Positions 18,824 to 33,340 of a stretch of 64,000 nt of DNA are shown one piece after another. The stretch comes from a phage. The stretch is taken from the NCBI GenBank assembly GCA_020773975.1, contig GCA_020773975.1_3638.1; one strand, given 5' to 3'. The notes beneath the pieces are model-generated. The model did no database searches, was not told the DNA's origin, and was given only the letters and a program-made list of their open reading frames with translations. The first letter of the stretch is position 1, and every line of letters starts with the position of its first letter. The position numbers and the translations under genes are program-made.

Positions 18824-19513
18824 TTACACTTTAATAATCGGTTCAACAAAGGTAATTGGTTTCATAATTTTACCATTACCATCCATAAAGGCAACACGTT
18901 CACCTACCTGAACATGGATTACAGAATTATAACGTCCTTTTGAACGCCGTTCAATCTCTTTGCATTCAAACTCCAACATCTCCAGTTCTTTATCCTTGTA
19001 GTCAGGATATTTAACAAGTAGTTGTGTGATTGTTGGGAACTTAGAGTCGTTAGAATTAAGAACCTCTTCCATATTATACCCAAGATTGATATCCAATTTA
19101 TAGCATAAAGCCACAACTTGTTTCAAAATCTCAGCATAATCAGAGATTTTCAACTTATCTTTATGTACCAAGTCAAGCAAACTACCGATTTGCAACTCAA
19201 CCGTGTCTGAGGGAACCATGCATGACTCCCATTTTTCAGTGTCCCACTGCACCAAACGCAAAGCGTAAGAGCTTACGACAAAAAGATCACAGGCTGCATC
19301 AATAACCGCTGCCTTGTCGGATGATGATAAGGCTTCAATAAGCTCAGAAAGCTCCTCTTTAATAAGATTTGTTTGTAGTTTAATATCTGTTGACATCCCA
19401 CCACGACCAATTCTTGCCACCTCATTCCATTTGGCAACACGATGACCATATGCAATCATGTTATCAGGCTTGCTCATGGTTTCAAGTGTGGAATACATAT
19501 TTTTTAAATTCAT
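18824..19513 (-). CDS. Putative MazG-like nucleotide pyrophosphohydrolase
   Basis: EExxE...D pattern (LIKEELSELIEAL ... DAACDLF); weak. Confidence 0.3.
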   Translation of the reverse strand: MNLKNMYSTLETMSKPDNMIAYGHRVAKWNEVARIGRGGMSTDIKLQTNLIKEELSELIEALSSSDKAAVIDAACDLFVVSSYALRLVQWDTEKWESCMVPSDTVELQIGSLLDLVHKDKLKISDYAEILKQVVALCYKLDINLGYNMEEVLNSNDSKFPTITQLLVKYPDYKDKELEMLEFECKEIERRSKGRYNSVIHVQVGERVAFMDGNGKIMKPITFVEPIIKV

Positions 19514-19522: not shown

Positions 19523-19894
19523 TTAATTTACTGCATCTGGTATATGATCACCATCTGGTTGATCACGAATTATTCTTAGAGGTAACAAAGCACCATTTTT
19601 TCCTGTGAACAGACATTTATCTGCATAGCTACCATTCTTGTACCAAGAGTATGATGTATTAACTTTATAAGTCATACCATCAAACTGGCAAGCAACAGTG
19701 TTAATTATTGGCCTAATAAGACAAAATGTAAGGATACCAATAACAACAAACCATGCGATAATAATCTTGCGAATATTTGGTTTTACCCAATCAATAAAAT
19801 CATCTAATTTATCCCGTCTGAACCTATATGCCAGATACACACATACAGAGAACAGTATAGTAGTCAGTAGAACGAACACCCAATACCAAATCAT
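19523..19894 (-). CDS. Membrane protein
   Basis: Two or three predicted transmembrane helices. Confidence 0.35.
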   Translation of the reverse strand: MIWYWVFVLLTTILFSVCVYLAYRFRRDKLDDFIDWVKPNIRKIIIAWFVVIGILTFCLIRPIINTVACQFDGMTYKVNTSYSWYKNGSYADKCLFTGKNGALLPLRIIRDQPDGDHIPDAVN

Positions 19895-19906: not shown

Positions 19907-21232
19907 TTAATATATAGGATCCCACGTCAAAGAATCTACCTCACGAACACATTTGCCAACAGGAAATTGCGGAACACCGTCATCGGTCCTTGCTTGGTAT
20001 GTAAAAGTTATATACTTGCCGATAAGTTTTTTCATATTCTCTTGTGAGCGTTCTTCGTGTGTGCCTCTCATCTTACAGTTAAATTGTGTACCATCCTTCT
20101 CAGCACACAACAGGACACCTTCTCCATTCTTATCCTCAAAGGAATCAAGAACTCTGGCCTCACCATCCTGAAACAATTTCCACTTTTGAAGATCAGACGA
20201 TCTTTGTCCAAACTCATACTTTCCGTGAAAGTTCCTTATTACAACACCCTCATAACCTGCTTCCATGAACTCACTGATAAGCATCTTAACACGATCCTCA
20301 CCAGATACAATTGTTCCGTGTACCACTTTAATTAGGTGATGAGGCCACGCATATTCAGATACTTTCTGTAAATTATTAAACCTACACTTGTTTGTGTCAG
20401 AAGACATCCATGGTGTGTCATCTTCCGAAGGGATATCGAAAATATGATATTCTAAGTCTAAACTTGAATAACCACAATACTTATTAATATTTTTCTCTGG
20501 TTTCTTTGTGATAGGATGTTCTAACCCTTCGGAGTCTTTCCAAAATTCATCACCATTGTTAATTGCTTTTTCAAATCGCTTTATGTCTGATTGATAGTCT
20601 TTTTCTATCTCACACTCTATCTCTTCTGGTGTTCTCCATTTCTTAGCCAAAGAGACTATTTTCTGGAGACTTAACCCATGAATATACAACTCACCATCAA
20701 ACATTTTCAACCCTGTCTTTTTGGCTAGCTTAGACATCTGATCAAGCAATTGGCCTTGTACAGGATATGTTTTATTGCCACGACTATTAAACACAGGTAC
20801 ACCATCATCACCAACAAGAACAAGTGCTCTGACACCATCGAGTTTTGGTTGAACATGCACAGGGTACACTAAAGAGCTTTTCCTTTTAATAGCATCATGT
20901 GCAAGCATTGGTGAGAAATCTTGTGTTTTTGTAAGATCATCCTTTGATACACGATACCCAAGGCGTACTTGTTTTTCCCACTTAGATTTTGCCTCCAAAA
21001 CAGCTTGTTCTGTATCAGTTGTCTCATTTTTCTTACCGATGTTTTTGGCAAAGCATTTTGTGCGTTTATACTGCATTTTACCGTTTTCTTTACCAAACTC
21101 AACAACAGTTTCTGATCCATCTACCCACACATTCCACACTTGATATGTACCATCCCTGTTTATGGCGTACAGTGTTGGGAGGTTATTTTCAAGCATTAAA
21201 TACCTCGCTTGTGACAACAGATTTTCCTTCAA
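19907..21232 (-). CDS. ATP-dependent DNA ligase
   Basis: Motif I KLDGVRAL (KxDG) and nucleotidyltransferase architecture; 441 aa. Confidence 0.65.
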   Translation of the reverse strand: MKENLLSQARYLMLENNLPTLYAINRDGTYQVWNVWVDGSETVVEFGKENGKMQYKRTKCFAKNIGKKNETTDTEQAVLEAKSKWEKQVRLGYRVSKDDLTKTQDFSPMLAHDAIKRKSSLVYPVHVQPKLDGVRALVLVGDDGVPVFNSRGNKTYPVQGQLLDQMSKLAKKTGLKMFDGELYIHGLSLQKIVSLAKKWRTPEEIECEIEKDYQSDIKRFEKAINNGDEFWKDSEGLEHPITKKPEKNINKYCGYSSLDLEYHIFDIPSEDDTPWMSSDTNKCRFNNLQKVSEYAWPHHLIKVVHGTIVSGEDRVKMLISEFMEAGYEGVVIRNFHGKYEFGQRSSDLQKWKLFQDGEARVLDSFEDKNGEGVLLCAEKDGTQFNCKMRGTHEERSQENMKKLIGKYITFTYQARTDDGVPQFPVGKCVREVDSLTWDPIY

Positions 21233-21974
21233 GGTGATTCTCTACCAACTCGATAAGTTTTTGGTTGCTGAATGCTTCAACTGCTCCACAGCGCATTTGG
21301 TACACACCATATTTATCATACTGCTCTTGTTCAAAGTAATTGATCGCTGGGTTTATTACAACCAGTTTAATACCTCGTTTTGCGATTGCATGCAGCAATT
21401 CCCAGTTAAAGTCGATAACCTGATTAGAGCAGCCAACCAGAAGTACAAGATCTTGAGTATTCAAGTCATCAAGCATGGTAAACATGTCCTGATAAAGTGG
21501 TGCATTCTCACCGAAAAATACCACATTTGGCTTGCACCACCAGTAATCATCAGGGTCAACAACCGCATATCCGACATCAATCACACGTTTAGGAAACTCT
21601 TCACCATTCTGTACAACAAGCTCTTTGAGAAAACCATGTACATGGAGAATATCCTTCTTTTCAATGCCAGCACGTTCAAGCAGATCGTCAACGTTTGTCG
21701 TAAGATTACGTACTTGTCCAGGATAACGGTTATACCATTCTGCTACACGAAGATGTGCCATGTTGGGATGAACAGTCTTCAATTCTTCACGGCGTTTGTT
21801 ATAAAATTCGTGTGTTTTGTGATAGAAATTGCCACGAAATGCATGGATATTGCACACCTCTTCAAGATCATATTCGTCCCAGAGGGCTTTACCTGACGAA
21901 GTATCTGTACGGAATGTACGAATACCGCTTTCTGTTGACATACCTGCACCACTAATCACAAGTAATCGACGCAT
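21189..21974 (-). CDS. Sir2-family (sirtuin-like) NAD-dependent protein
   Basis: Canonical Sir2 NAD-binding motif GAGMSTESGIRTFR near the N-terminus; 261 aa. Confidence 0.7.
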   Translation of the reverse strand: MRRLLVISGAGMSTESGIRTFRTDTSSGKALWDEYDLEEVCNIHAFRGNFYHKTHEFYNKRREELKTVHPNMAHLRVAEWYNRYPGQVRNLTTNVDDLLERAGIEKKDILHVHGFLKELVVQNGEEFPKRVIDVGYAVVDPDDYWWCKPNVVFFGENAPLYQDMFTMLDDLNTQDLVLLVGCSNQVIDFNWELLHAIAKRGIKLVVINPAINYFEQEQYDKYGVYQMRCGAVEAFSNQKLIELVENHLEGKSVVTSEVFNA

Positions 21975-21982
21975 ATAACCAC

Positions 21983-22390
21983 CTATTGTAATTTTAAAGA
22001 GTTACGTAAACGTGCTTCTTGACGATCACGAATAAACTGCGGGACATCATGAATGCTTTCGTTACCATGATAATTTTCCACAACTACAGATGTTACATCA
22101 TAGCAGTACCTTTCTGCTAAGTCAAGATAAGGTTTTAACTCTTTTACAGAAGTTGTTGTGTTTGAAACAATAACCTTTTCAACTTCATTCTGCATGTGGA
22201 GTTCTACTTTGTCACGACACCATTGATGAGCTTTGTGGACATTTTCTTCCTTCCACTCATACACACCTTCTTCGGTGTAATGAAATTGGTCAGCTTCGCA
22301 TACAGGCCAACGACCACCATCAGCCAACTCTTTAGCCAAAGTTGACTTTCCTGACCCAGAAACACCACGTAAAATAAATAACTTTTTCAT
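21983..22390 (-). CDS. P-loop kinase (polynucleotide-kinase-like)
   Basis: Walker A GVSGSGKST; 135 aa. Confidence 0.45.
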   Translation of the reverse strand: MKKLFILRGVSGSGKSTLAKELADGGRWPVCEADQFHYTEEGVYEWKEENVHKAHQWCRDKVELHMQNEVEKVIVSNTTTSVKELKPYLDLAERYCYDVTSVVVENYHGNESIHDVPQFIRDRQEARLRNSLKLQ

Positions 22391-22400
22391 TAGTTTCCCT

Positions 22401-22733
22401 TTAGTATTGGTGGCGGTAGAATTTTATACCTAGAGTATTTTCAAAATATTCTCTCGCCAACATGAATTTGTTCACAGCAGATGGATTAGAGCTATGTACG
22501 TGAATCTCCTTAAGATTCATAAACTTACCATCATGAAGCTCACGTTCAATATAGATGAAAGCATCGTAACCTTCCTCATCACCACCCAAGTCATTATCAA
22601 AATGGATGGAATCAATGTCACTATCACTCATAAATTTTAGTAATGAGTAGAAGCTAGAGAGATTCTTACACCATAAGGCATTAGGGTATCCATAATCTAC
22701 TGGATTTCGCAGATCATCCAACCACAGTTTCAA
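22401..22733 (-). CDS. Hypothetical protein
   Basis: ORF only. Confidence 0.3.
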   Translation of the reverse strand: MKLWLDDLRNPVDYGYPNALWCKNLSSFYSLLKFMSDSDIDSIHFDNDLGGDEEGYDAFIYIERELHDGKFMNLKEIHVHSSNPSAVNKFMLAREYFENTLGIKFYRHQY

Positions 22734-23662
22734 ATTGTACCTCCGAAAAAATCCTCAATGATTTCACGACGGAATTGTTCATGCAAACATTCCCAATGTT
22801 CTTTAGAATAGTTATCACGCAAATAGTTTAGAAGTTTATAATACTCTTCGTCAACTTTCTTCTTAGCTTCTTCTGGATTTCCCCAAATCATATCCCACTT
22901 GTTCTTACCACCACGCATCAAGAATTTCTTCGCCAAATAGTGTGGAGATTTTATTTTCAATAGAAGATCTTGTTGCCCTGTGGCAGCACGTACAACAAAT
23001 CCCTCATGTTTGCATTCCTTAGACATTTTAAGGATGTCTGAAAAGTGCATATTTATGTAAATCTCCGGTCGTTTAAAACCGAACTCTTTTGCGATAAGAT
23101 CAAGAGCTTTTTCACTAAGCATAGAAGTTAATTTGTCTTTGTGAAAGCGAACACCAATCAAATACACACCAGATTTTTCAGGTACAATGTGTGGATCTGA
23201 AGGAGCACAAATCTCAAAGATAAATGTTGTCTTTGGTTCTTCCACACATGATAACAACATTGGCAAATTAGTACATTCAGCCATAATCATGCCTTTTGCA
23301 AGTTTTGCAAAATCTGAATCTAAAGTTCCTGTTGTTGAAACAATTAGCTCACCATTGTATGAGCTTACTGCTGCCATAAAGCCATTAACTTTACGTGCTG
23401 CATTTACAGCCATATCTTTTGGCAGGTCAGTACCGTTCTCTAAATGATTGAAAATCTTTGTAAAAGGCCAAACAATAATGTTGTCATCACTGTCCACAAC
23501 CATACCACGGCAATCAAGTAAGCGACTGTCTTGATCCCACAAGTTTTCCCAGAAAACTTTGTTACTGTATTTCAAAACAGACAAACCTTTAAACTCACCA
23601 CTGGTATAAGTCTTCTTTTTAACAAGACCTTTTGCCACTAAATCTTCAACATTAAATTTCAT
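22730..23662 (-). CDS. Putative RNA ligase (nucleotidyltransferase superfamily)
   Basis: KVNG (KxNG-type motif I lysine); sits with the kinase and phosphatase genes. Confidence 0.4.
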   Translation of the reverse strand: MKFNVEDLVAKGLVKKKTYTSGEFKGLSVLKYSNKVFWENLWDQDSRLLDCRGMVVDSDDNIIVWPFTKIFNHLENGTDLPKDMAVNAARKVNGFMAAVSSYNGELIVSTTGTLDSDFAKLAKGMIMAECTNLPMLLSCVEEPKTTFIFEICAPSDPHIVPEKSGVYLIGVRFHKDKLTSMLSEKALDLIAKEFGFKRPEIYINMHFSDILKMSKECKHEGFVVRAATGQQDLLLKIKSPHYLAKKFLMRGGKNKWDMIWGNPEEAKKKVDEEYYKLLNYLRDNYSKEHWECLHEQFRREIIEDFFGGTI

Positions 23663-23859
23663 AAGTCTTCACCACCACTATTGTAGGTTTGTTTATTCAA
23701 TAACTCAATTATACATAGCGATCGTCTTGCGTCAACAGATTGGCTTGTTGAGTTTTTAGCAACAACCAGCTTGTCCACATCTTCTTTCTTGATGGATCCG
23801 TAAGCACCAGAATCCATCATGAAGAATATTTTATCGTCTGTTATCTTGTATATTTTCAT
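23659..23859 (-). CDS. Hypothetical small protein
   Basis: ORF only. Confidence 0.3.
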   Translation of the reverse strand: MKIYKITDDKIFFMMDSGAYGSIKKEDVDKLVVAKNSTSQSVDARRSLCIIELLNKQTYNSGGEDL

Positions 23860-23880
23860 TCATAAACTCTGAATAATTAT

Positions 23881-24459
23881 TCAATGACCATCAGCGGTGA
23901 AAACGTCTTTTTCCATGCACATTTGGTATGCTTCTGGTAGATCCAAAATTCTCCCATGTACATCCCAACCCACATCAAGGATCCGTCCTTTCGCACTGTA
24001 AGAGCCGTGGCAATGACCGTGCAAGAACACAGACCCAAAGTGGGATTTATTCCATGCGGCAAACGGATAATGACTCATACAAATTTTTTGTTCATAATCG
24101 TTAAATTCGTAATAATCGCACACATCATGACCACGTTTTTTGAATGTTTTAATCGCATCAAAATTGTCATGATTACCTTTGACAAGGACGATATGCCCAA
24201 CAAGTTCATCAAGAATTTCTTCAAGTCTTTTAATAACTTGCTTGCCATGACCGAAACAGAAATCACCAAGCACAAAAGTCACAGTGTCAGCATCTGCACC
24301 ATGGTTAAATTTCACTGTGAGGTCTTGGTTCATTTGTTCAACTGTTTTGTACAAATCACCACGAAAACGTTTTGAACTCTCAAAGTTAAGGATGTTTTTA
24401 TGCCAGTAATGTAAATCAGATGTTACACGGTATTTGGTTCCCATTTCTCTCTCCCACAC
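23881..24459 (-). CDS. Calcineurin-like metallophosphoesterase
   Basis: Motifs GD...G, GNHD and GHCHG. Confidence 0.6.
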   Translation of the reverse strand: MWEREMGTKYRVTSDLHYWHKNILNFESSKRFRGDLYKTVEQMNQDLTVKFNHGADADTVTFVLGDFCFGHGKQVIKRLEEILDELVGHIVLVKGNHDNFDAIKTFKKRGHDVCDYYEFNDYEQKICMSHYPFAAWNKSHFGSVFLHGHCHGSYSAKGRILDVGWDVHGRILDLPEAYQMCMEKDVFTADGH

Positions 24460-24469
24460 ACAACAAAAA

Positions 24470-24748
24470 TCACTGTCGCTCTAACAAATCTTCTGCTGGA
24501 TAAGCATACAGCATGTATTCCCAACCACGATGATAGTGTCTGTGCTGCCAGTTGATTAATTTTAGGCACACAATGTTCACCACGTTCCTGTCCCCATGGA
24601 TAAAAACACAAGTCTCAAGGATTGACTTTCCAAACTCAACATGACTGTCAAGATACAGTTTTGTGTTGTATCTTTTTTCAGCATCTAGCATGATCTGTTT
24701 CAGAGCCAGAAATGCCTCACGACACACAGATTTTTCATCAGAAATCAT
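24470..24748 (-). CDS. Hypothetical protein (first gene of the leftward unit; start trimmed to internal Met)
   Basis: C-terminal 92 aa of ORF 24470..25060. The N-terminal part of the ORF runs through the repeat-rich non-coding region and is Cys-rich junk. Confidence 0.3.
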   Translation of the reverse strand: MISDEKSVCREAFLALKQIMLDAEKRYNTKLYLDSHVEFGKSILETCVFIHGDRNVVNIVCLKLINWQHRHYHRGWEYMLYAYPAEDLLERQ

Positions 24749-25188
24749 TTTGATATTCAAGCATTTCCCCCACACAGGCAACCACGTAAATCGTGTCTGA
24801 TCACCACAACACAATCGGTTTGAAACAAACCTGTTTGACACACAACTGAATCGTCGTAGTGTCATGCCAAAACACAGACAGACATGATACGACGAAGATC
24901 CCCACACAGAGTCACATAGTGACTTGTGACAACCCGAATCCATGATTGAGATCAACACACAGAGACAAACCTGTAGGGTTTGTTGATGTGGGTTTATCTC
25001 AGAATGGCTCATGAGGGTTAGATGGTCACAAGCTATCAGCGCAGTGAGCATCTTACACACTCACGTATTGCCTGAAGAGTCTCATCGACTCACACTTTCA
25101 GGCAAAACACTATGAACTCTATGATTCGAAATCATCGAACCATACGATTCGACTCAATCGAATCATATCAACAAAAATATTTAAAATC

Positions 25189-25222: not shown

Positions 25223-25253
25223 AAATAAATTTTATATAATATATTATTATATA

Positions 25254-25384
25254 TATAATACGTAGTATTATATTAAATTATATTATATAATTTATATTAT
25301 ATTAGATCATATTAAATTATATTATACGTAGTATAATATATTATATTAAATAGATCATAGTATTATAATACGTAGTATTATATT
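25254..25384. repeat. AT tract with three copies of an ~20 bp repeat containing palindromic TACGTA, and clustered GATC sites
   Basis: ataatacgtagtattatatt at ~25255 and ~25365 (exact) and a variant at ~25322. GATC at 25305, 25353, 25390 and 25413. Confidence 0.55.
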
Positions 25385-25427
25385 TAATAGATCTTATATG
25401 TTAGTTTAATTTGATCAGTTAGTATTG

Positions 25428-25471
25428 TGTCCCTGAAACGGGGACATACCCATGTCCCTGAAACGGGGACA
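25428..25471. repeat. Two tandem 19 bp hairpin repeats (tgtccc-tgaaacg-gggaca), 25 bp period
   Basis: Exact direct repeat at 25428-25446 and 25453-25471; each is an inverted repeat GTCCC/GGGAC. Confidence 0.6.
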
Positions 25472-25481
25472 TATGGGAGGG

Positions 25482-25510: not shown

Positions 25511-25917
25511 TCTCGGTGTTGGATTACACACCGGAGTTTGCCTTGAAATCTATTGTTGGGGGTTTCCATGTAAATCCGAAACCTGGGTCGTACATCGCTG
25601 TCCCGACAGAGTGGGTTTTTGATGAACGCTTATCACCAAGCGATCTGCAAAGACTGATACGCTTGTTGTGGAGGTACGAGTATTTCAAGAATCTGAACCC
25701 TCTGGGTGGGGAACTGGTATTCTTTCCGTCACAACAATCCTTGTGTGGCCTGTTGGGGTGGAATGAAAACTCACGAACCAAAGTGTCTGAATTTCTGTCC
25801 CGGATGGAGAGCTTTGGTTATATCAGGCGTGTTAGATCAGGATTTCAGGATTCTGATGGTAACGTGAAACCAAGAAATTATATTATCGTCAATCGTATCA
25901 GAGGGGATAAATCATGA
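25492..25917 (+). CDS. Hypothetical protein (true start probably TTG ~25543 after GGAG)
   Basis: The ORF-track start lies inside the promoter spacer. Stop overlaps the start of the next gene. Confidence 0.35.
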   Translation: MGLWVAFSVLDYTPEFALKSIVGGFHVNPKPGSYIAVPTEWVFDERLSPSDLQRLIRLLWRYEYFKNLNPLGGELVFFPSQQSLCGLLGWNENSRTKVSEFLSRMESFGYIRRVRSGFQDSDGNVKPRNYIIVNRIRGDKS

Positions 25918-26723
25918 ATATTCGTTTGAGTTTGAACAAGCTACATGTGCCAGTTGACCATTTCACATTTAGTGGTGGTGAGGAGCAGATTAAGATCGAT
26001 ATGCGTCATGTTCCGCATGGTTCGATAGGTTTTGTTGATATCTTCGCTAGACTCAAGAACTCACAGGATGTGATGTGTTTGGCACTGCTTGTTGATGCAG
26101 TTAATCGTCTTGGCAATTTGGATGTTGGTGTGGAAAAGGTTTTACACCTGCCGTACATTCCGTATGCTCGACAAGACCGAGTTATGAACCCTGGAGAATC
26201 TCTGTCGGTGAAAGTCTTTGCCACAATGATTAACTCGCTTGGTTTCCACAAAGTCATCGTCGATGATCCACACAGTGACGTATCCGCAGCACTGATTGAT
26301 AACGTGAAAATTCGTTCTCAGACTGATTTGTTCTTGAACATGAATTTTGATTTTGATCTGCTTACGGACGAATCGCTTGTGTTGGTTGCTCCAGATGCAG
26401 GTGCACGCAAGAAGACCCAGAAGGTTGCTGATACCTTGGAACTATCTGTGGTTGAAGCAGGTAAAGTCCGTGATGTTTCGACAGGGGCAATCACAGGTAC
26501 AACAGTGTTTGGTGATGTCGATGGGAAGACATGCCTGGTTGTCGATGATATCTGCGATGGTGGGTTTACGTTTACAAACTTAGCTCAAGCCTTGAAAGCT
26601 GCTGGTGCAAAACGTGTTATTTTGTATGTTACGCATGGAATTTTCTCTCGTGGGAAAGAATTTATTCTCGACGGTGGTGTTGACGAAATTTATGCGTATT
26701 ACGACTGGACAGAAAATTTTTAA
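25914..26723 (+). CDS. Ribose-phosphate pyrophosphokinase (PRPP synthetase) family protein; candidate ADP-ribose pyrophosphate synthetase
   Basis: Prs motifs PYARQDR and PRPP-binding VDDICDGG; 269 aa. Confidence 0.65.
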   Translation: MNIRLSLNKLHVPVDHFTFSGGEEQIKIDMRHVPHGSIGFVDIFARLKNSQDVMCLALLVDAVNRLGNLDVGVEKVLHLPYIPYARQDRVMNPGESLSVKVFATMINSLGFHKVIVDDPHSDVSAALIDNVKIRSQTDLFLNMNFDFDLLTDESLVLVAPDAGARKKTQKVADTLELSVVEAGKVRDVSTGAITGTTVFGDVDGKTCLVVDDICDGGFTFTNLAQALKAAGAKRVILYVTHGIFSRGKEFILDGGVDEIYAYYDWTENF

Positions 26724-26788
26724 GTAGGTATTGACAAAGATACGTTTTAGTGAAAAAATACGCTTTTTAGGATTGGAGGGTTGAGACC

Positions 26789-28504
26789 ATGCTTCACAAA
26801 GAAAGTCCATTGCTGTTTGCAGATTTTTATAAACCAAGTCACATCTCGATGTACGACAAACGTTCACAGTTTGTTCAAGACAACATGACACCACGCAATG
26901 CGAAACACTTTGTACACTTTGCAGATGATGACCATCGTGTGATGTTTGCTGGTCTTCAGGGATTTATCAAGTGGTTCCTGATTGACATGTTTAATAATAA
27001 TTTCTTTGCTTTACCGAAAGAAAAGGCGATTCAGGATTACAAAGAGATTTGTGATTTGAGCATTGGGAAGGATGCTGTTGAAACTTGGGGTTTTGAGAGA
27101 TTGCATGATCTTGGCTATCTCCCAATTGAAATTAGAGCCTTGCCTGAAGGAACTCTTGTTCCTGTTCAGGTTCCTATGTTCACGATTCAGAATACGCACC
27201 CTGATTTTTACTGGCTGCCAAACTTCCTTGAGAGCGTGATCTCCTCGGAGACTTGGAAGACAATTACCACGGCAACGACTTTCTGGCAATACCGTAAACT
27301 ATCAGAACTGTGGGCAAAGAAAACATGTGATAACAACGATCACGTTCCTTTCCAGAACCATTGTTTTGCATACCGTGGTGAAGCTGGAACACATGACGCA
27401 GCACAGAGCGAATTTGGGCAACTGATTAGCTCAATGGGCACAGATACAATTCCAGCGATTGTTTACGCAAATCGCTATTACAACATGAAAGGTCGCTTTG
27501 TTGCTGGGTCTATTCCCGCATCTGAGCATAGCGTAGCGACAACGAACATTGGTTTTATTGTTGAGCGTATCCAGCAGGAAAATCCTGATATGTCGCTTGC
27601 TGAAGTACGTTTTCGTGCTGAAGTTGAGTTCTTAAAGCGTTATGCAACAGAGATTTTTCCGTCAGGCTATGCTTCATACGTCGCAGACAGCTATGATTTT
27701 TGGGCAATCATTACACAGGCAGCCAAAATCCTGAAAGATGAGATTATGTCTCGTGATGGCAAGCTGGTCTTTCGACCGGACAGTGGGATCCCAGAGCACA
27801 TTATTGCTGGCTATCGTGTGTGCTCCCAGGAAGAATGGGCAACTGGTCAGTGCTGTGATATGGATGCTGTGCTGTTTAAAAATGGCAAATATGTCACTCT
27901 GCACGAGATGTCCAGAGACACTTCCTGGATGCGAGATTCGGAAGGAAACCTCGTAGATTGGAAATCTTTGACAGGTGATGAGTTTACAAATTATCTGACC
28001 AAAGAGGAGGTTAAGGGTGCTGTACAATGCTTGTGGGAAATCTTTGGTGGTAGTGTAAACTCTTTGGGTTACAAAGTTCTTGATAGCCATGTTGGTTTAA
28101 TCTACGGAGACTCTATCACAATCTCTCGTGCTAAAGAGATCTTTGAGCGCCTTGAAGAACGAGGCTTTGCTTCCAGCAACATTGTGTTTGGTGTAGGATC
28201 TTATACAACGCAATATACAACTCGTGATTCTCTTGGGATGGCTGTAAAAGCTACTGGTGCTGTGATTGATGGCAGACAAGTAATGGTTGTAAAAGAGCCT
28301 AAGACTGATCTTGGGAAGAAATCTGCGAAAGGTTTTGTTAAAGTTATTCGTGGTGATGATGGTGAGTTGAAGCTGGTAGATAATCTTGGTATTAATCAGG
28401 TATCTGACCCTGATAACGAGCTTAGAACAGTTTTTGTTAATGGTAAGCTGCTTGTGGATGAGGATCTTGAAGAAATTCGCCAAAGAGCTTTGTCACAGCT
28501 TTAA
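26789..28504 (+). CDS. Nicotinamide phosphoribosyltransferase (NAMPT) family protein; candidate nicotinamide ADP-ribose transferase
   Basis: 571 aa with type II phosphoribosyltransferase features; directly downstream of the Prs-like gene. Confidence 0.6.
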   Translation: MLHKESPLLFADFYKPSHISMYDKRSQFVQDNMTPRNAKHFVHFADDDHRVMFAGLQGFIKWFLIDMFNNNFFALPKEKAIQDYKEICDLSIGKDAVETWGFERLHDLGYLPIEIRALPEGTLVPVQVPMFTIQNTHPDFYWLPNFLESVISSETWKTITTATTFWQYRKLSELWAKKTCDNNDHVPFQNHCFAYRGEAGTHDAAQSEFGQLISSMGTDTIPAIVYANRYYNMKGRFVAGSIPASEHSVATTNIGFIVERIQQENPDMSLAEVRFRAEVEFLKRYATEIFPSGYASYVADSYDFWAIITQAAKILKDEIMSRDGKLVFRPDSGIPEHIIAGYRVCSQEEWATGQCCDMDAVLFKNGKYVTLHEMSRDTSWMRDSEGNLVDWKSLTGDEFTNYLTKEEVKGAVQCLWEIFGGSVNSLGYKVLDSHVGLIYGDSITISRAKEIFERLEERGFASSNIVFGVGSYTTQYTTRDSLGMAVKATGAVIDGRQVMVVKEPKTDLGKKSAKGFVKVIRGDDGELKLVDNLGINQVSDPDNELRTVFVNGKLLVDEDLEEIRQRALSQL

Positions 28505-29415: not shown

Positions 29416-29488
29416 GGCCCCTTAGCTCAGTGGTTAGAGCAGGTGACTCATAATCGCTTGGTCGCTGGTTCAAGTCCAGCAGGGGCCA
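29416..29488 (+). tRNA. tRNA-Met (anticodon CAT; could be initiator, elongator or lysidine-modified Ile2)
   Basis: Cloverleaf by eye: acceptor ggcccct/aggggcc, anticodon loop cuCAUaa, T-loop ttcaagt, 3' CCA encoded. Confidence 0.75.
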
Positions 29489-29543
29489 CCAAATGTGGCA
29501 CACGAAATAAACTAGGTTTATTGTTTTCGGAGGAGAAAACTTA

Positions 29544-29867
29544 ATGGCTAAGAAACAGTCTGCTAAAAAGGTATCAGCTATCGAGGCGATCAAGCAACCT
29601 TTTCAGTTTGAATCAAAATCCACGCAGACACATTCTGCACCGCACGATGTGCGTCTTGGTGGCAAAACGCAAACTGTAGCAGTTCTGAAAAAACGCAAAG
29701 ATGAAGACGGTAATACTGAAATGTATTATGAATCTGTGTCTCGTGTCATTGGTGGTGAAGTGATTTCTGCTTCCTATCGTATCCGTACTGGGAAAACAAA
29801 GCGTGAACGAGAAGTGAAACAGAAAACAAGCACTCCTGTAGAAAACGTTAAGAAAACTAAAAAATAA
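29544..29867 (+). CDS. Hypothetical basic protein
   Basis: ORF with RBS; lysine-rich. Confidence 0.35.
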   Translation: MAKKQSAKKVSAIEAIKQPFQFESKSTQTHSAPHDVRLGGKTQTVAVLKKRKDEDGNTEMYYESVSRVIGGEVISASYRIRTGKTKREREVKQKTSTPVENVKKTKK

Positions 29868-29943
29868 TTTACTGACGAGAGTGCCACCGTGAGCCAGCGT
29901 CATTAAACAAAGGGAATCACGGACATTCAGGAGGGTTGAGATT

Positions 29944-30138
29944 ATGATAGGATCTTTGCTTAAGATTGCAAGCGATGTAACAACAACGGCTGTTGAAGTG
30001 ACTGCTGCGGTAACAACTCCGTTTGTTGATTTAGCATCAGATGCTATAGCAGCAGCAGCAGACGAGATGATTTTGTCACCGACATCTGATCTTGTCCAAG
30101 ATCTTTGTGATTCTATAAAAGATGCTGTAAAAGATTAA
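29944..30138 (+). CDS. Hypothetical small protein
   Basis: ORF only. Confidence 0.3.
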   Translation: MIGSLLKIASDVTTTAVEVTAAVTTPFVDLASDAIAAAADEMILSPTSDLVQDLCDSIKDAVKD

Positions 30139-30211
30139 AATTTTTCTTGACATAGTTTTTGTTTTTCTGTATAGTTACTTTATCAAAGCTAATTTACATA
30201 TGAGAGATTGA

Positions 30212-30859
30212 ATGTCTACTAAGATTTCCGTAACTCGTGCACTTGCTTCTATCTCTAAGATTGAAGATAAGATCAATAAGCGTATTTATAACCTTGAATG
30301 TATTAAGATTGCAAAAGGAACTGAGAATAATTGTAAGATTCCTGGTTATATCGGCTCTGTTGATGATTTTAAGAAATCTGCGATCAACGACTATCAAAGT
30401 CTGCAAGACCTCTTGGCAGTTCGCGATGAACTGAAGGCAAAAATTGTCAAGTCTAATGCTGAGACAATTGTCAAAATTGGTAAGGTGTCTATGACAGTTG
30501 CTGAGGCAATCGAACGCAAACGGACGATTTGCTTTAAACAAGAGTTGTTAAACAAACTTTGTGCACAGCGTGCTTCTGCACAGCTTCTTCTGGCAAAAGA
30601 AGAAAAATCTCTGGAAGATAAACTTGAAAATGCCAGAGCGCCATATATCCAACGTGATAAAGCGCCAGATGCAGAGCAGATTAAGACTGTGGAAGCTCCC
30701 ATTCGAATGATGAACACACCATCGGTTGTGGATCCTCTTGAACTGGCTTCTAAGATTCGTTCTCTTGAAGAAGAGATTGAAGATTTCTTGTCTAACGTTG
30801 ATTTTGCGTTGTCTGAGTCAAACGCTAAGACAGAAATTGAGATTGAGCACTCTCTCTAA
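30212..30859 (+). CDS. Hypothetical protein (coiled-coil)
   Basis: ORF only. Confidence 0.35.
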   Translation: MSTKISVTRALASISKIEDKINKRIYNLECIKIAKGTENNCKIPGYIGSVDDFKKSAINDYQSLQDLLAVRDELKAKIVKSNAETIVKIGKVSMTVAEAIERKRTICFKQELLNKLCAQRASAQLLLAKEEKSLEDKLENARAPYIQRDKAPDAEQIKTVEAPIRMMNTPSVVDPLELASKIRSLEEEIEDFLSNVDFALSESNAKTEIEIEHSL

Positions 30860-31224
30860 AAGGCTCTGATAATATCATTATCGTTCCTTTGTTTTGAAAT
30901 TTAAAACATTGCTTTTGATTAACGAAGTTTACATCATCTTGCCTCCTGGGGATTGGAGGTTAAATATTCCCCACCATGTATCGTATATGTATGAGGATAA
31001 TACAGGACATAGATGCAGCGAGGCACACTAAGATGCCTTGTTGTTTCTACTAAGTAAAAGTTCATACAATAAAGGTCAATGGTCAAATGTAAAAGATGAA
31101 ACTTGAAAGTTAATTCTTGAAAGATAAAATTTCGTTTATCATCTGAAATCCTTGGCACAGGTTATGGCTCACAAGATATGGTCTGTAAAGCCTCAAGGCT
31201 GTTAATCGGAAGCAATGTCTTATT

Positions 31225-31296
31225 GCTCGTATAGCTCAACGGTAGAGCACCTGCCTTGTAAGCAGGGGGTTGCAGGTTCGAAACCTGCTGCGAGCA
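31225..31296 (+). tRNA. tRNA-Thr (anticodon TGT)
   Basis: Anticodon loop cuUGUaa, T-loop ttcgaaa, CCA encoded. Confidence 0.7.
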
Positions 31297-31301
31297 CCAA
31301 T

Positions 31302-31398
31302 GCTGGGTAAGCCCCTTGGCAAGGGCGAGGATTTATAATCCTGAAAATAGACGGGCTAGCCGTTGAATACATAGGTGGTTCGATTCCATCGCCCAGCT
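31302..31398 (+). tRNA. Atypical tRNA-like gene (~97 nt; canonical acceptor and T-arm, anticodon not confidently assignable)
   Basis: Acceptor gctgggt/gcccagc and T-arm ggtgg-ttcgatt-ccatc are canonical; the central region holds the palindrome aggatt-TAT-aatcct and a hairpin acgg-gctag-ccgt. Confidence 0.35.
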
Positions 31399-31598
31399 AC
31401 AAGTTTGTTTTATAGTGTATTAGCTTATATTATTCGATATAAATGCCTGATCAGCATTTGTTGGGAATGAGGCATACAATGCGTGAGAAAGCTATCGGTG
31501 CGCAACGTTGATTTCAAACGTATTCATGCTCGTAGAGCACCAACTGTGGAAGTTGGGGTGAGGTTGAGTAACCATACACTATAAAGCATTCTTATTCT

Positions 31599-31672
31599 CG
31601 GGGTGTAGCTCAGTTGGATAGAGCAGCGGCCTTCTAAGCCGTAGGTCACAGGTTCGAATCCTGTCTCCTCGA
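31599..31672 (+). tRNA. tRNA-Arg (anticodon TCT)
   Basis: D-arm tagctcagttggatagagca, anticodon loop cuUCUaa, T-loop ttcgaat, CCA encoded. Confidence 0.7.
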
Positions 31673-31751
31673 CCAGATTAACCCCAACTTGAGAATCGTC
31701 AGCGCGGCTCGTAAGACCCACTCTATAGGTTCTCTACTCGGGGTACTTATT

Positions 31752-31825
31752 GCACGGTTGCCGGAATTTGGTTACGGGTCTGTCTGCAAAACGGATATAT
31801 GTCGGTTCAAGTCCGACACCGTGCT
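31752..31825 (+). tRNA. tRNA-Cys (anticodon GCA)
   Basis: Acceptor gcacggt/accgtgc, anticodon loop cuGCAaa, T-loop ttcaagt, CCA encoded. Confidence 0.6.
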
Positions 31826-31865
31826 CCAAACTTTCAATTTCTTGGTAAATATGTTAAAATACCAC

Positions 31866-31894
31866 TTGACAGATATGTTTTTATTTGATAATAT
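31866..31894 (+). promoter_or_regulatory. Sigma70-like promoter (TTGACA-17-TAATAT)
   Basis: Near-consensus hexamers with 17 bp spacer ~20 nt upstream of the RBS/ATG at 31914. Confidence 0.55.
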
Positions 31895-31913
31895 CATTAA
31901 GTGGGGTTTTAAA

Positions 31914-32261
31914 ATGGCTACCAAGCAGCTTACAAAACGTAGAAGAGGAAAAGGTCGTCCTCTGAAAGAGGAATCTAATGCAATTCAGTTAGAGAAAAAT
32001 ATCCTAGATTTGAAAACGAATCTGATTGCAATGATTCCTGAAGCTCATCAGGTTCTTAGGGATTTGATGAAGAATGTGAATACAAAAGACAATATCAGAG
32101 AAAATATCGCTCGTTATGTTATTGAGAAAGGTGAGCAGATGCTTTCTGATTACTTTGATGAGGAAAACGAAGAGTTACTCGAAAAAGATAACTCAGAAAA
32201 AGCTCCTATTAAGGCAGCTAAACCATTCTCGACGGATATTGTTCAATTCAAACAAGGTTAA
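31914..32261 (+). CDS. Hypothetical basic protein (115 aa) inside the tRNA array
   Basis: ATG with upstream promoter; the longer ORF-track start at 31689 overlaps tRNA-Cys and is rejected. Confidence 0.4.
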   Translation: MATKQLTKRRRGKGRPLKEESNAIQLEKNILDLKTNLIAMIPEAHQVLRDLMKNVNTKDNIRENIARYVIEKGEQMLSDYFDEENEELLEKDNSEKAPIKAAKPFSTDIVQFKQG

Positions 32262-32262
32262 T

Positions 32263-32349
32263 GTGTCGTTAGACCGTAGGGGTAGCTGGGGAGACTGTAA
32301 ATCTCCTGTCTCGAAAGGGACTCGGGTAGTTCGACTCTATCACGGCACA
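32263..32349 (+). tRNA. tRNA-Tyr (anticodon GTA), class II with long variable arm
   Basis: Anticodon arm ggaga-cuGUAaa-tctcc, variable arm, T-loop ttcgact, CCA encoded. Confidence 0.65.
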
Positions 32350-32420
32350 CCAACTGAATCTGTACTGGCTTTGATGTGTGACGATACCCTCCAATCGTGG
32401 TTGTTGGGCCAGTACAGTTT

Positions 32421-32493
32421 GGGAGTGTAGATCAGTTAGTAGATCGCTCGACCGATAATCGAGAGGACGTAGGGGCAGAGCCTACCACTCCCA
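32421..32493 (+). tRNA. tRNA-like, apparent anticodon GAT (Ile), with non-canonical T-loop (possible pseudo-tRNA)
   Basis: Acceptor gggagtg/cactccc, anticodon arm ctcga-ccGAUaa-tcgag (C33), T-arm gtagg-GGCAGAG-cctac lacks the TTCRA consensus. Confidence 0.4.
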
Positions 32494-33336: not shown

Positions 33337-33340
33337 CAAA

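What the first reader, a model, noticed from the sequence alone, without database searches (positions are those of the whole stretch)
21983..24459. Clustered P-loop kinase, RNA-ligase-like and metallophosphatase genes: candidate RNA (tRNA) repair module
Three neighbouring genes encode a Walker-A kinase, a KxNG nucleotidyltransferase-type ligase-like protein and a calcineurin-like phosphoesterase. These are the three activities (5'-kinase, 3'-phosphatase, ligase) used by T4 Pnkp/Rnl1 to repair tRNAs cut by host anticodon nucleases. Here they appear as separate genes with an unknown ORF (22401-22733) between them.
Basis: partly seen in the sequence, partly recalled or inferred. Interest (0 to 1): 0.45.

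Follow-up and report, generated by a model that had tools for sequence, protein, structure and literature searches.

The report
Phage RNA break-repair gene cluster
This coliphage carries a tight operon of a 5'-kinase, a T4/Trl1-type RNA ligase and a metallophosphatase, plus a receiver-fold enzyme, that most likely re-joins tRNAs cut by host defence nucleases; the arrangement was already predicted from comparative genomics but has never been tested.

Summary
Minus-strand genes at 21983-24444 encode a P-loop polynucleotide-kinase-like protein, an Rnl1-family RNA ligase (Lys91-x-Asn-Gly) and a binuclear metallophosphoesterase (MPP), all with intact catalytic motifs. The "unknown ORF" (22401-22733) is a cREC protein (Pfam PF20274); its model has a receiver-domain fold and a conserved acidic pocket.

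The cluster is wider than reported. A zinc-ribbon-less Sir2, an ATP-dependent DNA ligase and a MazG-like gene follow in the same operon. A Prs/Nampt-like pair resembling the NAD+ rebuilding pathway NARP1 and 15 tRNA genes lie nearby.

Ligase, kinase and MPP stay linked in most of 85 viral loci, in all six gene orders. Kinase and ligase are fused in 11 viral and 31 bacterial loci, the latter usually followed by the MPP.

The window is a Vequintavirinae-like coliphage. This neighbourhood (sirtuin, T4-like tRNA ligase, cREC, kinase, MazG, occasional calcineurin-like phosphoesterase; prototype phage V5) was described computationally by Iyer et al. 2022. I found no experimental test.

Verdict: a real, probably functional heal-and-seal RNA repair module, and a new member of a known, predicted kind. 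Interest is moderate. The open question is whether cREC and Sir2 provide an NAD+-dependent, Trl1/Tpt1-like repair route.

The parts
23881..24444 (-). Binuclear metallophosphoesterase (MPP, 187 aa); proposed 2',3'-cyclic-phosphate / 3'-phosphate end-healing enzyme
   Evidence: Pfam Metallophos E 4.7e-8 and phrog_547 'phosphoesterase' E 4.5e-44. The motifs D10-x-H12, G60-D61, G90-N91-H92, H125 and G143-H144-x-H146 are invariant in 22 homologues. The nearest solved structure is Aquifex aq_1665 (1XM7), E 2.7e-21, of unknown function. An MPP is present in 72 of 85 viral loci. The ATG at 24444 has a GGGAGAG ribosome-binding site upstream.
23659..23859 (-). 66-aa ORF of unknown function; its stop overlaps the ligase start
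   Evidence: phrog_20147, E 2.2e-16, unknown function, no Pfam match. Found in only 3 of 85 loci, so it is lineage-specific and probably not a core part.
22730..23662 (-). Rnl1-family ATP-dependent RNA ligase (310 aa), nucleophile Lys91
   Evidence: Pfam PF09511 E 1.4e-17 and phrog_562 E 7.5e-66. A family profile hits T4 Rnl1 (2C5U) at E 9.3e-13, aligning R52, K69, F71, K91xNG94, E150, E220-G221 and K236xK238 (all invariant) to the conserved T4 Rnl1 motifs LECRG, PMEKFFN, KEDG, FE, EGYV and KIKS. AF2 model pLDDT 91. Foldseek top hits are fungal Trl1 ligase domains (E about 1e-13, TM 0.62-0.69) and T4 Rnl1 (E 5e-12).
22401..22733 (-). cREC protein (110 aa): stand-alone receiver-fold protein, predicted cyclic-phosphate/phosphoester-processing enzyme
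21983..22390 (-). P-loop polynucleotide-kinase-like protein (135 aa); proposed RNA 5'-OH kinase
   Evidence: Pfam AAA_33 E 4.6e-10, phrog_2071, and phrog_505 'polynucleotide kinase' E 2.8e-11. A family profile gives full-length matches to T4 Pnk (1LY1, 5.7e-6), the C. thermocellum Pnkp kinase domain (4GP7, 5.9e-6), Pnkp1 (4XRP, 5.5e-7) and PSTK. Invariant residues are R8, G9, G12, G14, K15, D34, N77 and H114. Next to the ligase in 82 of 85 viral loci and fused to it in 11 viral and 31 bacterial loci.
21189..21974 (-). Sir2-family protein (261 aa) lacking the zinc-ribbon cysteines; accessory gene of the neighbourhood
   Evidence: Pfam SIR2 E 6.2e-26 and phrog_2162 E 7.7e-101. The closest solved structure is E. 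coli CobB (1S5P), E 3.4e-19. GAGxS, TFR, TTNVD and the catalytic H113 are conserved, but the CobB zinc cysteines are not aligned to cysteines. Present in 13 of 85 loci, and together with cREC in 10.
19907..21196 (-). ATP-dependent DNA ligase; same operon, membership of the repair module uncertain
   Evidence: Pfam DNA_ligase_A_M plus DNA_ligase_OB_2, and phrog_114. The start at about 21196 follows the TH18 annotation. On the ligase strand in 45 of 85 loci, but within 2.5 kb in only 4 of 17 clusters at 50% ligase identity.
18824..19513 (-). MazG-superfamily nucleotide pyrophosphohydrolase; last gene of the row
   Evidence: Pfam PRA-PH E 6.9e-6 (26.8 bits against a cut-off of 21.3) and phrog_671 E 1e-23. 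Listed as a component of the published neighbourhood. Present in 16 of 85 loci.
25914..28504 (+). Divergently transcribed Prs-like (25914-26723) and Nampt-like (26789-28504) gene pair, resembling NARP1 (Adps + Namat)
   Evidence: NCBIfam and PHROG hits. The same two-gene operon type was shown to rebuild NAD+ from ADPR in phage Bas63 (bioRxiv 10.1101/2024.02.11.579819). A Nampt-like gene lies within the 8-kb flanks in 40 of 85 loci and a Prs-like gene in 33. This is context, not a proven part.

Best explanation
The region is the core of a phage operon that repairs broken RNA, most probably tRNA anticodon loops cut by host defence ribonucleases. [quoted passage not shown]

Proposed steps:
1. The metallophosphoesterase, possibly helped by cREC, removes the cyclic or 3'-phosphate to give a 3'-OH.
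2. The small P-loop kinase phosphorylates the 5'-OH. Asp34 is the proposed general base (an assignment from memory of the T4 Pnk literature, see the Against line).
3. The Rnl1-type ligase is adenylylated on Lys91 and seals the 3'-OH and 5'-phosphate ends.

Shown here: family membership, intact catalytic residues, fold, tight operon packing and evolutionary linkage, including gene fusions.

Inferred: the substrates, the division of labour at the 3' end, and the biological trigger.

In this lineage cREC, a zinc-less Sir2 and MazG are added. Their role is open. It could be an alternative 2'-phosphate route using NAD+, or clean-up of ADP-ribose by-products.
For: - Domain hits are above the curated cut-offs for all three core genes.
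- Ligase: the profile matches T4 Rnl1 at E 9.3e-13, with every nucleotidyltransferase motif and the Rnl1-specific upstream Arg, Lys and Phe invariant. The model has pLDDT 91, and its best structural matches are tRNA ligases Trl1 and T4 Rnl1, ahead of other RNA ligases and far ahead of DNA ligases.
- Kinase: the full-length profile matches are the polynucleotide-kinase clade, namely T4 Pnk, CthPnkp, Pnkp1 and PSTK. Gluconate, adenylate and nicotinamide-riboside kinases match only the P-loop region.
- MPP: all five metallophosphoesterase motifs are invariant.
- Synteny in viral loci: kinase in 82 of 85 and MPP in 72 of 85. At 50% ligase identity, 13 and 14 of 17 clusters keep them within 2.5 kb. 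All six gene orders occur.
- Fusions: a kinase-ligase single ORF occurs in 11 viral loci; L050 has AAA_33 plus RNA_lig_T4_1 in 426 aa. It also occurs in 31 of 37 bacterial loci (Moraxella, Neisseriaceae, Cardiobacteriaceae, Pasteurellaceae). The MPP is present downstream, usually adjacent, in 24 of those fused loci (28 of all 37). In Moraxella boevrei the flanks are housekeeping genes.
- Genes overlap or are separated by at most about 20 nt.
- A published precedent shows an MPP healing 2',3'-cyclic RNA ends: the C. thermocellum Pnkp phosphatase domain (PMC2190708 and PMC3675462, abstracts seen).
- The same neighbourhood was predicted to be RNA repair by Iyer et al. 2022.
Against: - No experiment exists for any member of this module; none turned up.
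- The MPP's closest solved relative is an uncharacterised Aquifex protein, followed weakly by the glycerophosphodiesterase GpdQ. It is not the CthPnkp or lambda phosphatase clade, so an RNA-end substrate is unproven.
- The position that, from my memory of the T4 Pnk literature, corresponds to the RNA-binding Arg38 is His37 in the window and is not conserved.
- The ligase falls far below the NCBIfam equivalog cut-off for T4 RnlA (24 against 242 bits). Its C-terminal helical domain is about 70 aa, shorter than in T4 Rnl1.
- The 11 viral fused-gene loci have no detectable phosphoesterase nearby.
- The module often neighbours NAD+/ADPR genes, which allows a metabolite-centred reading for the accessory enzymes.
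Confidence: 0.7

Rival explanations
1. The module is split. Only the kinase-ligase pair repairs RNA. The MPP, cREC, Sir2 and MazG instead process NAD+-derived small molecules (ADPR-1''-phosphate, ADPR 1''-2'' cyclic phosphate, ADPR-PP by-products or immune signals). They would feed ADPR to the neighbouring Prs/Nampt-like pair if it is NARP1.
For: - The Prs-like and Nampt-like pair lies 1.5 kb away, and within the flanks of 33 to 40 of 85 loci.
- NARP1 intermediates decay to ADPR-cyclic-phosphate.
- Some phages extend NARP1 with an ADPR-1P phosphatase, although that enzyme is a Macro domain. The same Macro family appears in JSF10-type loci.
- Iyer et al. predict that cREC opens 1''-2'' cyclic ADPR phosphate.
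- The MPP has weak similarity to small-molecule phosphodiesterases GpdQ and SpdA.
Against: - The MPP tracks the ligase much more closely than it tracks NARP1: 14 of 17 clusters against 5 of 17 at 50% ligase identity.
- In bacterial chromosomes the MPP directly follows the kinase-ligase fusion, and no Prs/Nampt-like gene was detected in any of the 31 fused-gene loci; the only Nampt hit is in L087, where kinase and ligase are separate genes.
- The experimentally shown NARP1-associated phosphatase is a Macro domain, not an MPP.
Confidence: 0.15
2. The kinase and MPP are DNA end-processing enzymes, comparable to PNKP, that prepare nicks or breaks for the adjacent ATP-dependent DNA ligase. The Rnl1-like protein is incidental.
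For: - An ATP-dependent DNA ligase lies in the same operon and on the same strand in 45 of 85 loci.
- From general knowledge, T4 Pnkp and mammalian PNKP act on DNA ends. PNKP kinase domains appear among the weaker profile hits, E about 1e-3.
- Neighbouring genes are replication and recombination functions: exonuclease, RuvC-like resolvase and a DNA polymerase exonuclease subunit.
Against: - The kinase is fused to the RNA ligase, never to the DNA ligase, in 42 loci.
- The DNA ligase lies within 2.5 kb in only 4 of 17 diverged clusters.
- My DNA-ligase profile found no DNA ligase in any of the 37 bacterial loci.
- The ligase's structural neighbours are RNA ligases.
Confidence: 0.07
3. The ligase homologue serves mainly as a tail-fibre attachment catalyst, the second activity of T4 gp63, and its clustering with a kinase and a phosphatase has no functional meaning.
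For: PHROG and many GenBank records name the family 'RNA ligase and tail fiber protein attachment catalyst'. That name is inherited from T4 gp63.
Against: - The gene sits among early nucleotide-metabolism genes, not among tail genes.
- All ligase catalytic residues are invariant.
- Homologues fused to a kinase occur in bacterial chromosomes. In Moraxella boevrei, the one locus whose flanks I annotated, these are housekeeping genes.
- Linkage to the kinase and MPP is conserved through rearrangements.
Confidence: 0.03

Closest known systems
Sirtuin-centred phage RNA-repair neighbourhood, type 2 of Iyer, Burroughs, Anantharaman and Aravind 2022 (Viruses 14:1977, PMC9503650); prototypes Escherichia phage V5 and Proteus phage Mydo
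   Same: All six listed components are present in one operon: sirtuin, T4-like tRNA ligase, cREC, nucleotide kinase, MazG pyrophosphatase and a calcineurin-like phosphoesterase. The phage subfamily, Vequintavirinae, is that of the window's closest relative TH18; the placement of phage V5 there is from general knowledge.
   Different: Nothing essential differs. In my sample the MPP is near-universal beside the ligase, while sirtuin and cREC are the occasional components. This reverses the emphasis of the published description. The published function is a prediction only.
Phage T4 tRNA repair: Pnkp (kinase plus HAD 3'-phosphatase) and Rnl1
   Same: The same three chemical activities are expected. 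The ligase is a profile-level and fold-level relative of T4 Rnl1 with all catalytic motifs. The kinase is a profile-level relative of the T4 Pnk kinase domain.
   Different: The kinase is a stand-alone 135-aa protein with no HAD phosphatase domain. The 3'-end enzyme is an unrelated binuclear metallophosphoesterase. The ligase has a shorter C-terminal domain and scores far below the T4 RnlA equivalog cut-off. A cREC gene is inserted.
Bacterial Pnkp/Hen1 and Pnkp1-Rnl-Hen1 RNA repair systems (Clostridium thermocellum, Capnocytophaga gingivalis)
   Same: These also combine a P-loop 5'-kinase, a metallophosphoesterase 2',3'-phosphatase and an ATP-dependent ligase. Their kinase domains are among the best profile hits (4XRP and 4GP7).
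   Different: There the three modules sit in one polypeptide (or two), with a different ligase clade and a Hen1 methyltransferase partner. Here the genes are separate, the ligase is Rnl1-type, the MPP shows no detectable sequence match to the CthPnkp phosphatase, and no Hen1 was seen among the ORFs examined between 18.8 and 28.5 kb.
Fungal/plant tRNA ligase Trl1 (LIG-KIN-CPD) with Tpt1 2'-phosphotransferase
   Same: The ligase model's top structural matches are Trl1 ligase domains. A P-loop kinase is linked or fused to the ligase. A candidate cyclic phosphodiesterase (cREC) and an NAD+-using enzyme (Sir2) are adjacent.
   Different: The domain order in fusions is KIN-LIG, not LIG-KIN. No 2H-family CPD and no Tpt1/KptA were detected among the ORFs examined. 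The roles of cREC and Sir2 as their analogues are hypothetical. The MPP has no counterpart in the Trl1 pathway.

Membership tests
Rnl1-family ATP-dependent RNA ligase (T4 Rnl1 / Trl1-LIG clade) | Covalent nucleotidyltransferase motifs I (KxxG), III (FE), IV (EG) and V (KxK) | tested here: met
   K91-V-N-G94, F149-E150, E220-G221 and K236-x-K238 are invariant in 22 to 27 homologues. They align to the KEDG, FE, EGYV and KIKS motifs of T4 Rnl1.
Rnl1-family ATP-dependent RNA ligase (T4 Rnl1 / Trl1-LIG clade) | Rnl1-specific N-terminal elements, equivalent to T4 R54, K75 and F77 (numbering from memory of the T4 Rnl1 mutagenesis literature) | tested here: met
   LxCRG (R52) and PFTKxFN (K69, F71) are invariant and align to the LECRG and PMEKFFN segments of 2C5U.
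Rnl1-family ATP-dependent RNA ligase (T4 Rnl1 / Trl1-LIG clade) | Family HMM above the curated threshold | tested here: met
   Pfam PF09511 scores 64.7 bits against a gathering score of 28.3.
Rnl1-family ATP-dependent RNA ligase (T4 Rnl1 / Trl1-LIG clade) | Equivalog of T4 RnlA (NCBIfam TIGR02308) | tested here: not met
   24.1 bits against a cut-off of 242. The protein is a distant family member, not an orthologue of T4 gp63.
Rnl1-family ATP-dependent RNA ligase (T4 Rnl1 / Trl1-LIG clade) | Overall fold closest to Rnl1/Trl1, with an all-helical C-terminal domain | tested here: met
   The first ten Foldseek hits are Trl1-LIG and T4 Rnl1 (E 2e-13 to 2e-11). The model has helices from 240 to 307, a domain of about 70 aa that is shorter than the T4 domain.
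Rnl1-family ATP-dependent RNA ligase (T4 Rnl1 / Trl1-LIG clade) | ATP-dependent sealing of RNA 3'-OH/5'-PO4 ends, and tRNA specificity | not testable with these tools
   This needs biochemistry.
T4-type polynucleotide kinase-phosphatase (Pnkp) | P-loop kinase domain with Walker A and an Asp general base | tested here: met
   GxxGxGK[ST] and D34 are invariant. The profile aligns the full length of the T4 Pnk kinase domain (1LY1) at E 5.7e-6. Equating D34 with T4 D35 rests on my own comparison with the T4 sequence from memory.
T4-type polynucleotide kinase-phosphatase (Pnkp) | Arg residues that bind the polynucleotide and ATP (T4 R38 and R126, from memory) | tested here: inconclusive
   The position I take to match R38 is H37 in the window and varies across homologues. 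Invariant R8 and H114 have no counterpart I can assign.
T4-type polynucleotide kinase-phosphatase (Pnkp) | Fused HAD (DxDxT) 3'-phosphatase domain | tested here: not met
   The protein is 135 aa with a kinase domain only. No HAD hit was found in the operon. It is therefore not a Pnkp family member, although the module may work like one.
Bacterial Pnkp/Hen1 RNA repair system | Kinase, MPP phosphatase and ligase in one polypeptide, with a Hen1 methyltransferase partner | tested here: not met
   The genes are separate. The MPP profile does not hit the CthPnkp phosphatase. No methyltransferase was found among the operon ORFs scanned.
Binuclear metallophosphoesterase superfamily | Motifs DxH, GD, GNH[DE], H and GHxH | tested here: met
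   D10, H12, G60-D61, G90-N91-H92, H125 and G143-H144-x-H146 are invariant in 22 sequences.
cREC (PF20274) cyclic-phosphate-processing receiver domain | HMM above threshold, receiver fold, conserved Asp pocket, and no histidine-kinase context | tested here: met
cREC (PF20274) cyclic-phosphate-processing receiver domain | Cyclic phosphodiesterase activity | not testable with these tools
   The activity is itself only predicted in the literature.
Iyer et al. 2022 type-2 sirtuin / tRNA-ligase / cREC phage neighbourhood | Co-linear sirtuin, T4-like tRNA ligase, cREC, nucleotide kinase and MazG, with or without a calcineurin-like phosphoesterase | tested here: met
   All six are found between 18824 and 24444 on one strand. 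The definition is quoted.
NARP1 (Adps + Namat), for the neighbouring gene pair only | Adjacent Prs-like and Nampt-like genes | tested here: met
   The genes are 25914-26723 and 26789-28504. The operon type is described.
NARP1 (Adps + Namat), for the neighbouring gene pair only | ADPR (not ribose-5-phosphate) specificity of the Prs-like enzyme, and ADPR-PP specificity of the Nampt-like enzyme | not tested
   The specificity-determining residues were not examined.

The most novel reading that the evidence does not exclude
In this lineage the module may run a Trl1/Tpt1-style, NAD+-consuming repair route built from unrelated folds.

- The receiver-fold cREC would open the 2',3'-cyclic phosphate to a 2'-phosphate.
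- The Trl1-like ligase would seal the ends.
- A zinc-ribbon-less sirtuin, instead of Tpt1/KptA, would transfer the junction 2'-phosphate to NAD+.
- The MPP and MazG would clear the ADPR-phosphate product.
- The adjacent Prs/Nampt-like pair, if it is NARP1, would rebuild NAD+.

This would be the first sirtuin acting on RNA and the first catalytic (non-signalling) receiver domain of this kind. The idea was put forward by Iyer et al. 2022 and is untested.
Probability: 0.2. Interest if true: 0.7.

Novelty: new member of a known kind. Interest (0 to 1): 0.35.

Why it matters
tRNA-cleaving defences are now known to be very common: PrrC, RloC, PARIS, retron-Septu, Cas13, OLD and others are listed. 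The only phage counter-repair system with experimental support is T4 Pnkp/Rnl1.

This module is a widespread, differently built alternative:
- Ligase relatives occur in 731 phage records.
- They are spread across Vequintavirinae, Stephanstirmvirinae, Pakpunavirus and T5-like Vibrio phages.
- A fused form exists in Moraxella and Neisseriaceae genomes; flanks were annotated only in Moraxella boevrei, where they are housekeeping genes.

If it is active, it would explain part of the host range and defence evasion of therapeutic coliphages and Pseudomonas phages. It would also supply new RNA-end-modifying enzymes. Its cREC and Sir2 components are testable candidates for new RNA and NAD+ chemistry.

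Tried and rejected
- Single-sequence searches of the ligase against PDB sequences found nothing relevant. Only a family profile reached T4 Rnl1.
- The cREC profile gave no hit against PDB sequences.
- The word-indexed homologue search for cREC gave only 6 proteins. The exhaustive search was needed and gave 1376.
- A Pfam scan of ten longer cREC-containing proteins, looking for informative domain fusions, found only the cREC domain.
- I searched for a substitute 3'-phosphoesterase in the viral lineage with fused kinase-ligase genes and no MPP. Pfam found thioredoxin, an Rv2179c-like exoribonuclease, DUF3307 and a weak Pyr_excise hit, but no phosphoesterase.
- I considered that the kinase might be a gluconate or nicotinamide-riboside kinase, because of the local GVSGSGKS...D-x-F-H similarity. 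I rejected this because those matches cover only the first 35 to 45 residues, full-length matches are polynucleotide and tRNA kinases, and the kinase is fused to the ligase.
- I considered that the MPP might be the NARP1-associated ADPR-1P phosphatase. The published enzyme is a Macro domain.
- tRNA genes lie within 8 kb of the ligase in 39 of 85 loci. Without a control this is context only, not evidence.
- Burroughs and Aravind 2016 (NAR 44:8525), the probable first description of such systems, is not held in the library. I therefore cannot say whether the bacterial kinase-ligase plus MPP cassette is described there.

Full report
**Origin of the window**

Bases 21000-25016 of the window are 93% identical to Escherichia phage vB_EcoM_TH18 (Vequintavirinae, 133.9 kb) and to three related marmot-derived phage assemblies. 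In those records every gene of the finding is annotated "hypothetical protein". GC skew shows minus-strand transcription up to about 25 kb and plus-strand transcription beyond it.

**Checking the observation**

The minus strand carries a tightly packed gene row. In order of transcription:

| Coordinates | Product |
|---|---|
| 24470-24748 | small ORF, phrog_7684 |
| 23881-24444 | MPP |
| 23659-23859 | 66-aa ORF |
| 22730-23662 | RNA ligase |
| 22401-22733 | cREC |
| 21983-22390 | kinase |
| 21189-21974 | Sir2 |
| 19907-21196 | ATP-dependent DNA ligase |
| 19523-19894 | 123-aa membrane protein |
| 18824-19513 | MazG-like |

- Neighbouring genes overlap by 4 to 8 nt or are separated by at most about 20 nt.
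- Pfam hits for the kinase (AAA_33), ligase (RNA_lig_T4_1) and MPP (Metallophos) all exceed their gathering scores. PHROG hits agree.
- The MPP more probably starts at the ATG at 24444, behind a GGGAGAG ribosome-binding site, than at the GTG at 24459.

**Ligase**

- A 22-sequence alignment has these invariant residues: R52, K69, F71, K91, N93, G94, E150, E220, G221, K236 and K238.
- A profile of it finds T4 Rnl1 (2C5U) at E 9.3e-13. These residues align to the LECRG, PMEKFFN, KEDG, FE, EGYV and KIKS motifs of T4 Rnl1. A single-sequence search had found nothing.
- An AlphaFold2 model has pLDDT 91. Its best matches are fungal tRNA ligase Trl1 ligase domains (E about 1e-13, TM 0.62-0.69) and T4 Rnl1 (E 5e-12).
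- Rnl3, Rnl5 and Rnl2 ligases follow. DNA ligases appear only at E of 1e-5 or weaker.
- The protein is not an equivalog of T4 RnlA: 24 bits against a cut-off of 242. Its helical C-terminal domain is only about 70 aa.

**Kinase**

- In 20 homologues, R8, G9, G12, G14, K15, D34, N77 and H114 are invariant.
- The profile's full-length matches are all enzymes that phosphorylate nucleic-acid ends or tRNA:

| Structure | Protein | E-value |
|---|---|---|
| 4XRP | Pnkp1 | 5.5e-7 |
| 1LY1 | T4 polynucleotide kinase | 5.7e-6 |
| 4GP7 | C. thermocellum Pnkp kinase domain | 5.9e-6 |
| 3ADB | PSTK | 1.2e-5 |

- Small-molecule kinases match only the P-loop region.
- There is no HAD phosphatase domain, so this is not a T4-type Pnkp.

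**MPP**

- All five metallophosphoesterase motifs are invariant.
- The nearest solved structure is the uncharacterised Aquifex aq_1665, E 2.7e-21. GpdQ is a weak second.
- Its substrate therefore cannot be read from homology.

**cREC**

- An exhaustive profile search finds 1376 representatives.
- In 81 of them D6, D7 and D46 are invariant, and R9, D48, H80 and N83 are nearly invariant.
- No member has a solved structure or a tested activity. The cyclic-phosphodiesterase role is a published prediction.

**Sir2**

- The closest solved structure is E. coli CobB, E 3.4e-19.
- The NAD+-binding motifs and the catalytic His113 are retained, but the zinc-ribbon cysteines are lost.

**Comparative genomics**

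I fetched 80 viral-contig loci (IMG/VR) encoding a ligase relative and five annotated phage loci. I built iterated HMMs from the window proteins and mapped them onto all ORFs.

| Gene | Loci (of 85) | Note |
|---|---|---|
| Kinase | 82 | within 1.5 kb of the ligase in 76 |
| MPP | 72 | within 1.5 kb of the ligase in 66 |
| DNA ligase | 45 | |
| Nampt-like | 40 | |
| Prs-like | 33 | |
| MazG | 16 | |
| cREC | 14 | |
| Sir2 | 13 | |

- I collapsed the loci at 50% ligase identity into 17 clusters. Kinase and MPP lie within 2.5 kb of the ligase in 13 and 14 clusters. cREC does so in 4 and Sir2 in 2.
- All six orders of kinase, ligase and MPP occur.
- In 11 viral loci the kinase and ligase form one ORF. 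Pfam confirms this for L050: AAA_33 at residues 10-109 and RNA_lig_T4_1 at 178-361.
- A scan of one genome per prokaryotic species found 37 loci. Most are in Moraxella, Kingella, Neisseria, Conchiformibius, Cardiobacteriaceae and Pasteurellaceae.
  - 31 of the 37 carry a kinase-ligase fusion of about 500 aa.
  - 28 of the 37 have an MPP, usually immediately downstream.
  - In Moraxella boevrei the pair is flanked by hisG, a Dam-type methylase, tauE and formate-tetrahydrofolate ligase. That is chromosomal, not prophage, context.
- Linkage that persists through rearrangement, together with repeated fusion, is strong evidence that the three proteins act in one pathway.

**Literature**

- Iyer et al. 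[quoted passage not shown]
  - They propose that the sirtuin acts like KptA/Tpt1 on RNA 2'-phosphates.
  - They propose that cREC and the other phosphoesterases open cyclic phosphates or process ADPR>p.
- The jumbo-phage survey from the same group defines cRec and notes its linkage to RNA ligases.
- Four full-text searches returned no experimental work on any member.
- The neighbouring Prs/Nampt-like pair corresponds to the NARP1 operon type shown in phage Bas63 to rebuild NAD+ from ADPR.
- The NARP1-associated phosphatase known so far is a Macro domain. That family also appears in JSF10-type loci in my set.

**Interpretation**

The best-supported reading is a heal-and-seal RNA repair operon that is functionally analogous to T4 Pnkp plus Rnl1 and to bacterial Pnkp, but assembled from separate proteins that are only partly related to them.

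- The core is ligase, kinase and MPP.
- cREC, Sir2 and MazG are lineage-specific additions.
- It remains open which enzyme handles the 2',3'-cyclic phosphate, whether a 2'-phosphate intermediate and NAD+ are involved, and which RNAs are the substrates.

Rivals:
- A metabolite-processing role for the MPP, cREC, Sir2 and MazG alongside NARP1 is the most serious rival. The MPP's much tighter linkage to the ligase than to NARP1 weakens it, as does the absence of any Prs/Nampt-like gene in the bacterial fused-gene loci.
- A DNA-end-repair reading is contradicted by the fusions and by the ligase's structural neighbours.

**Verdict**

The finding is real and correctly interpreted, but it is not new. 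It is a further member of a computationally described and experimentally untested phage RNA-repair neighbourhood.

Noticed in passing
window 25914-28504 (+): A Prs-like (269 aa) and a Nampt-like (571 aa) gene pair is transcribed divergently from the repair operon. It matches the two-gene NARP1 operon type (Adps + Namat) that rebuilds NAD+ from ADP-ribose in phage Bas63. Such a pair lies within 8 kb of the ligase in 33 to 40 of 85 related loci.
   Followed up: partly
window about 25225-25420: An extremely AT-rich intergenic stretch made of repeated ATACTACGTAT(T)ATAAT / TATAAT-like units, with many promoter-like sites on both strands. The linear record of phage TH18 ends at window 25016. The contigs of three sister assemblies end or start at the edges of this stretch. 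It is therefore either an assembly-breaking repeat or lies near a genome end.
   Followed up: partly
window about 25430-25480: Two tandem copies of the palindrome TGTCCCCGTTTCAGGGACA lie just upstream of the plus-strand ORF 25492/25567-25917 (phrog_8453, with weak HTH and DnaD-like hits). This looks like an operator for a local regulator.
   Followed up: no
window 29416-34689 (+): An array of 15 tRNA genes (Met x2, Thr, Arg, Cys, Tyr, Gly, Gln, Ser x2, Lys, Asn, Pro, Leu, Phe) lies 5 to 10 kb from the repair operon. tRNA genes lie within 8 kb of the ligase in 39 of 85 related loci, but there is no control for background density.
   Followed up: partly
L089-L122 (bacterial genome contigs), e.g. 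L095:5416-7648, L103:5377-7601: Moraxella, Kingella, Neisseria, Conchiformibius, Cardiobacteriaceae and Pasteurellaceae genomes carry a two-gene cassette. It consists of a kinase / Rnl1-like ligase fusion of about 500 aa, usually followed directly by an MPP. In Moraxella boevrei it sits among housekeeping genes. The Kingella loci lack the MPP. I could not check whether this cellular cassette has been described before.
   Followed up: partly
L005:6721-7194 (Vibrio phage JSF10) and 9 other loci: A Macro-domain gene sits between the Prs-like and Nampt-like genes. This matches the recently described NARP1-AP variant, in which the Macro protein Adpp dephosphorylates ADPR-1''-phosphate. The window has no such gene.
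   Followed up: partly
L046, L050, L052-L057, L062-L064 (viral contigs): A viral lineage with fused kinase-ligase genes has no detectable MPP or other phosphoesterase within 4 kb. Its neighbours are thioredoxin, an Rv2179c-like 3'-5' exoribonuclease, DUF3307 and a DNA ligase. How 3' ends would be healed there is unexplained.
   Followed up: partly
window 21189-21974 (-): The phage Sir2 keeps the NAD+-binding and catalytic His motifs of CobB, but it has lost the four zinc-ribbon cysteines that shape the acyl-lysine peptide cleft. This hints at a non-protein substrate.
   Followed up: partly
window 24470-24748 (-) and 23659-23859 (-): Two small ORFs of unknown function (phrog_7684, 92 aa; phrog_20147, 66 aa) are embedded in the operon. 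The 66-aa ORF is found in only 3 of 85 related loci.
   Followed up: no
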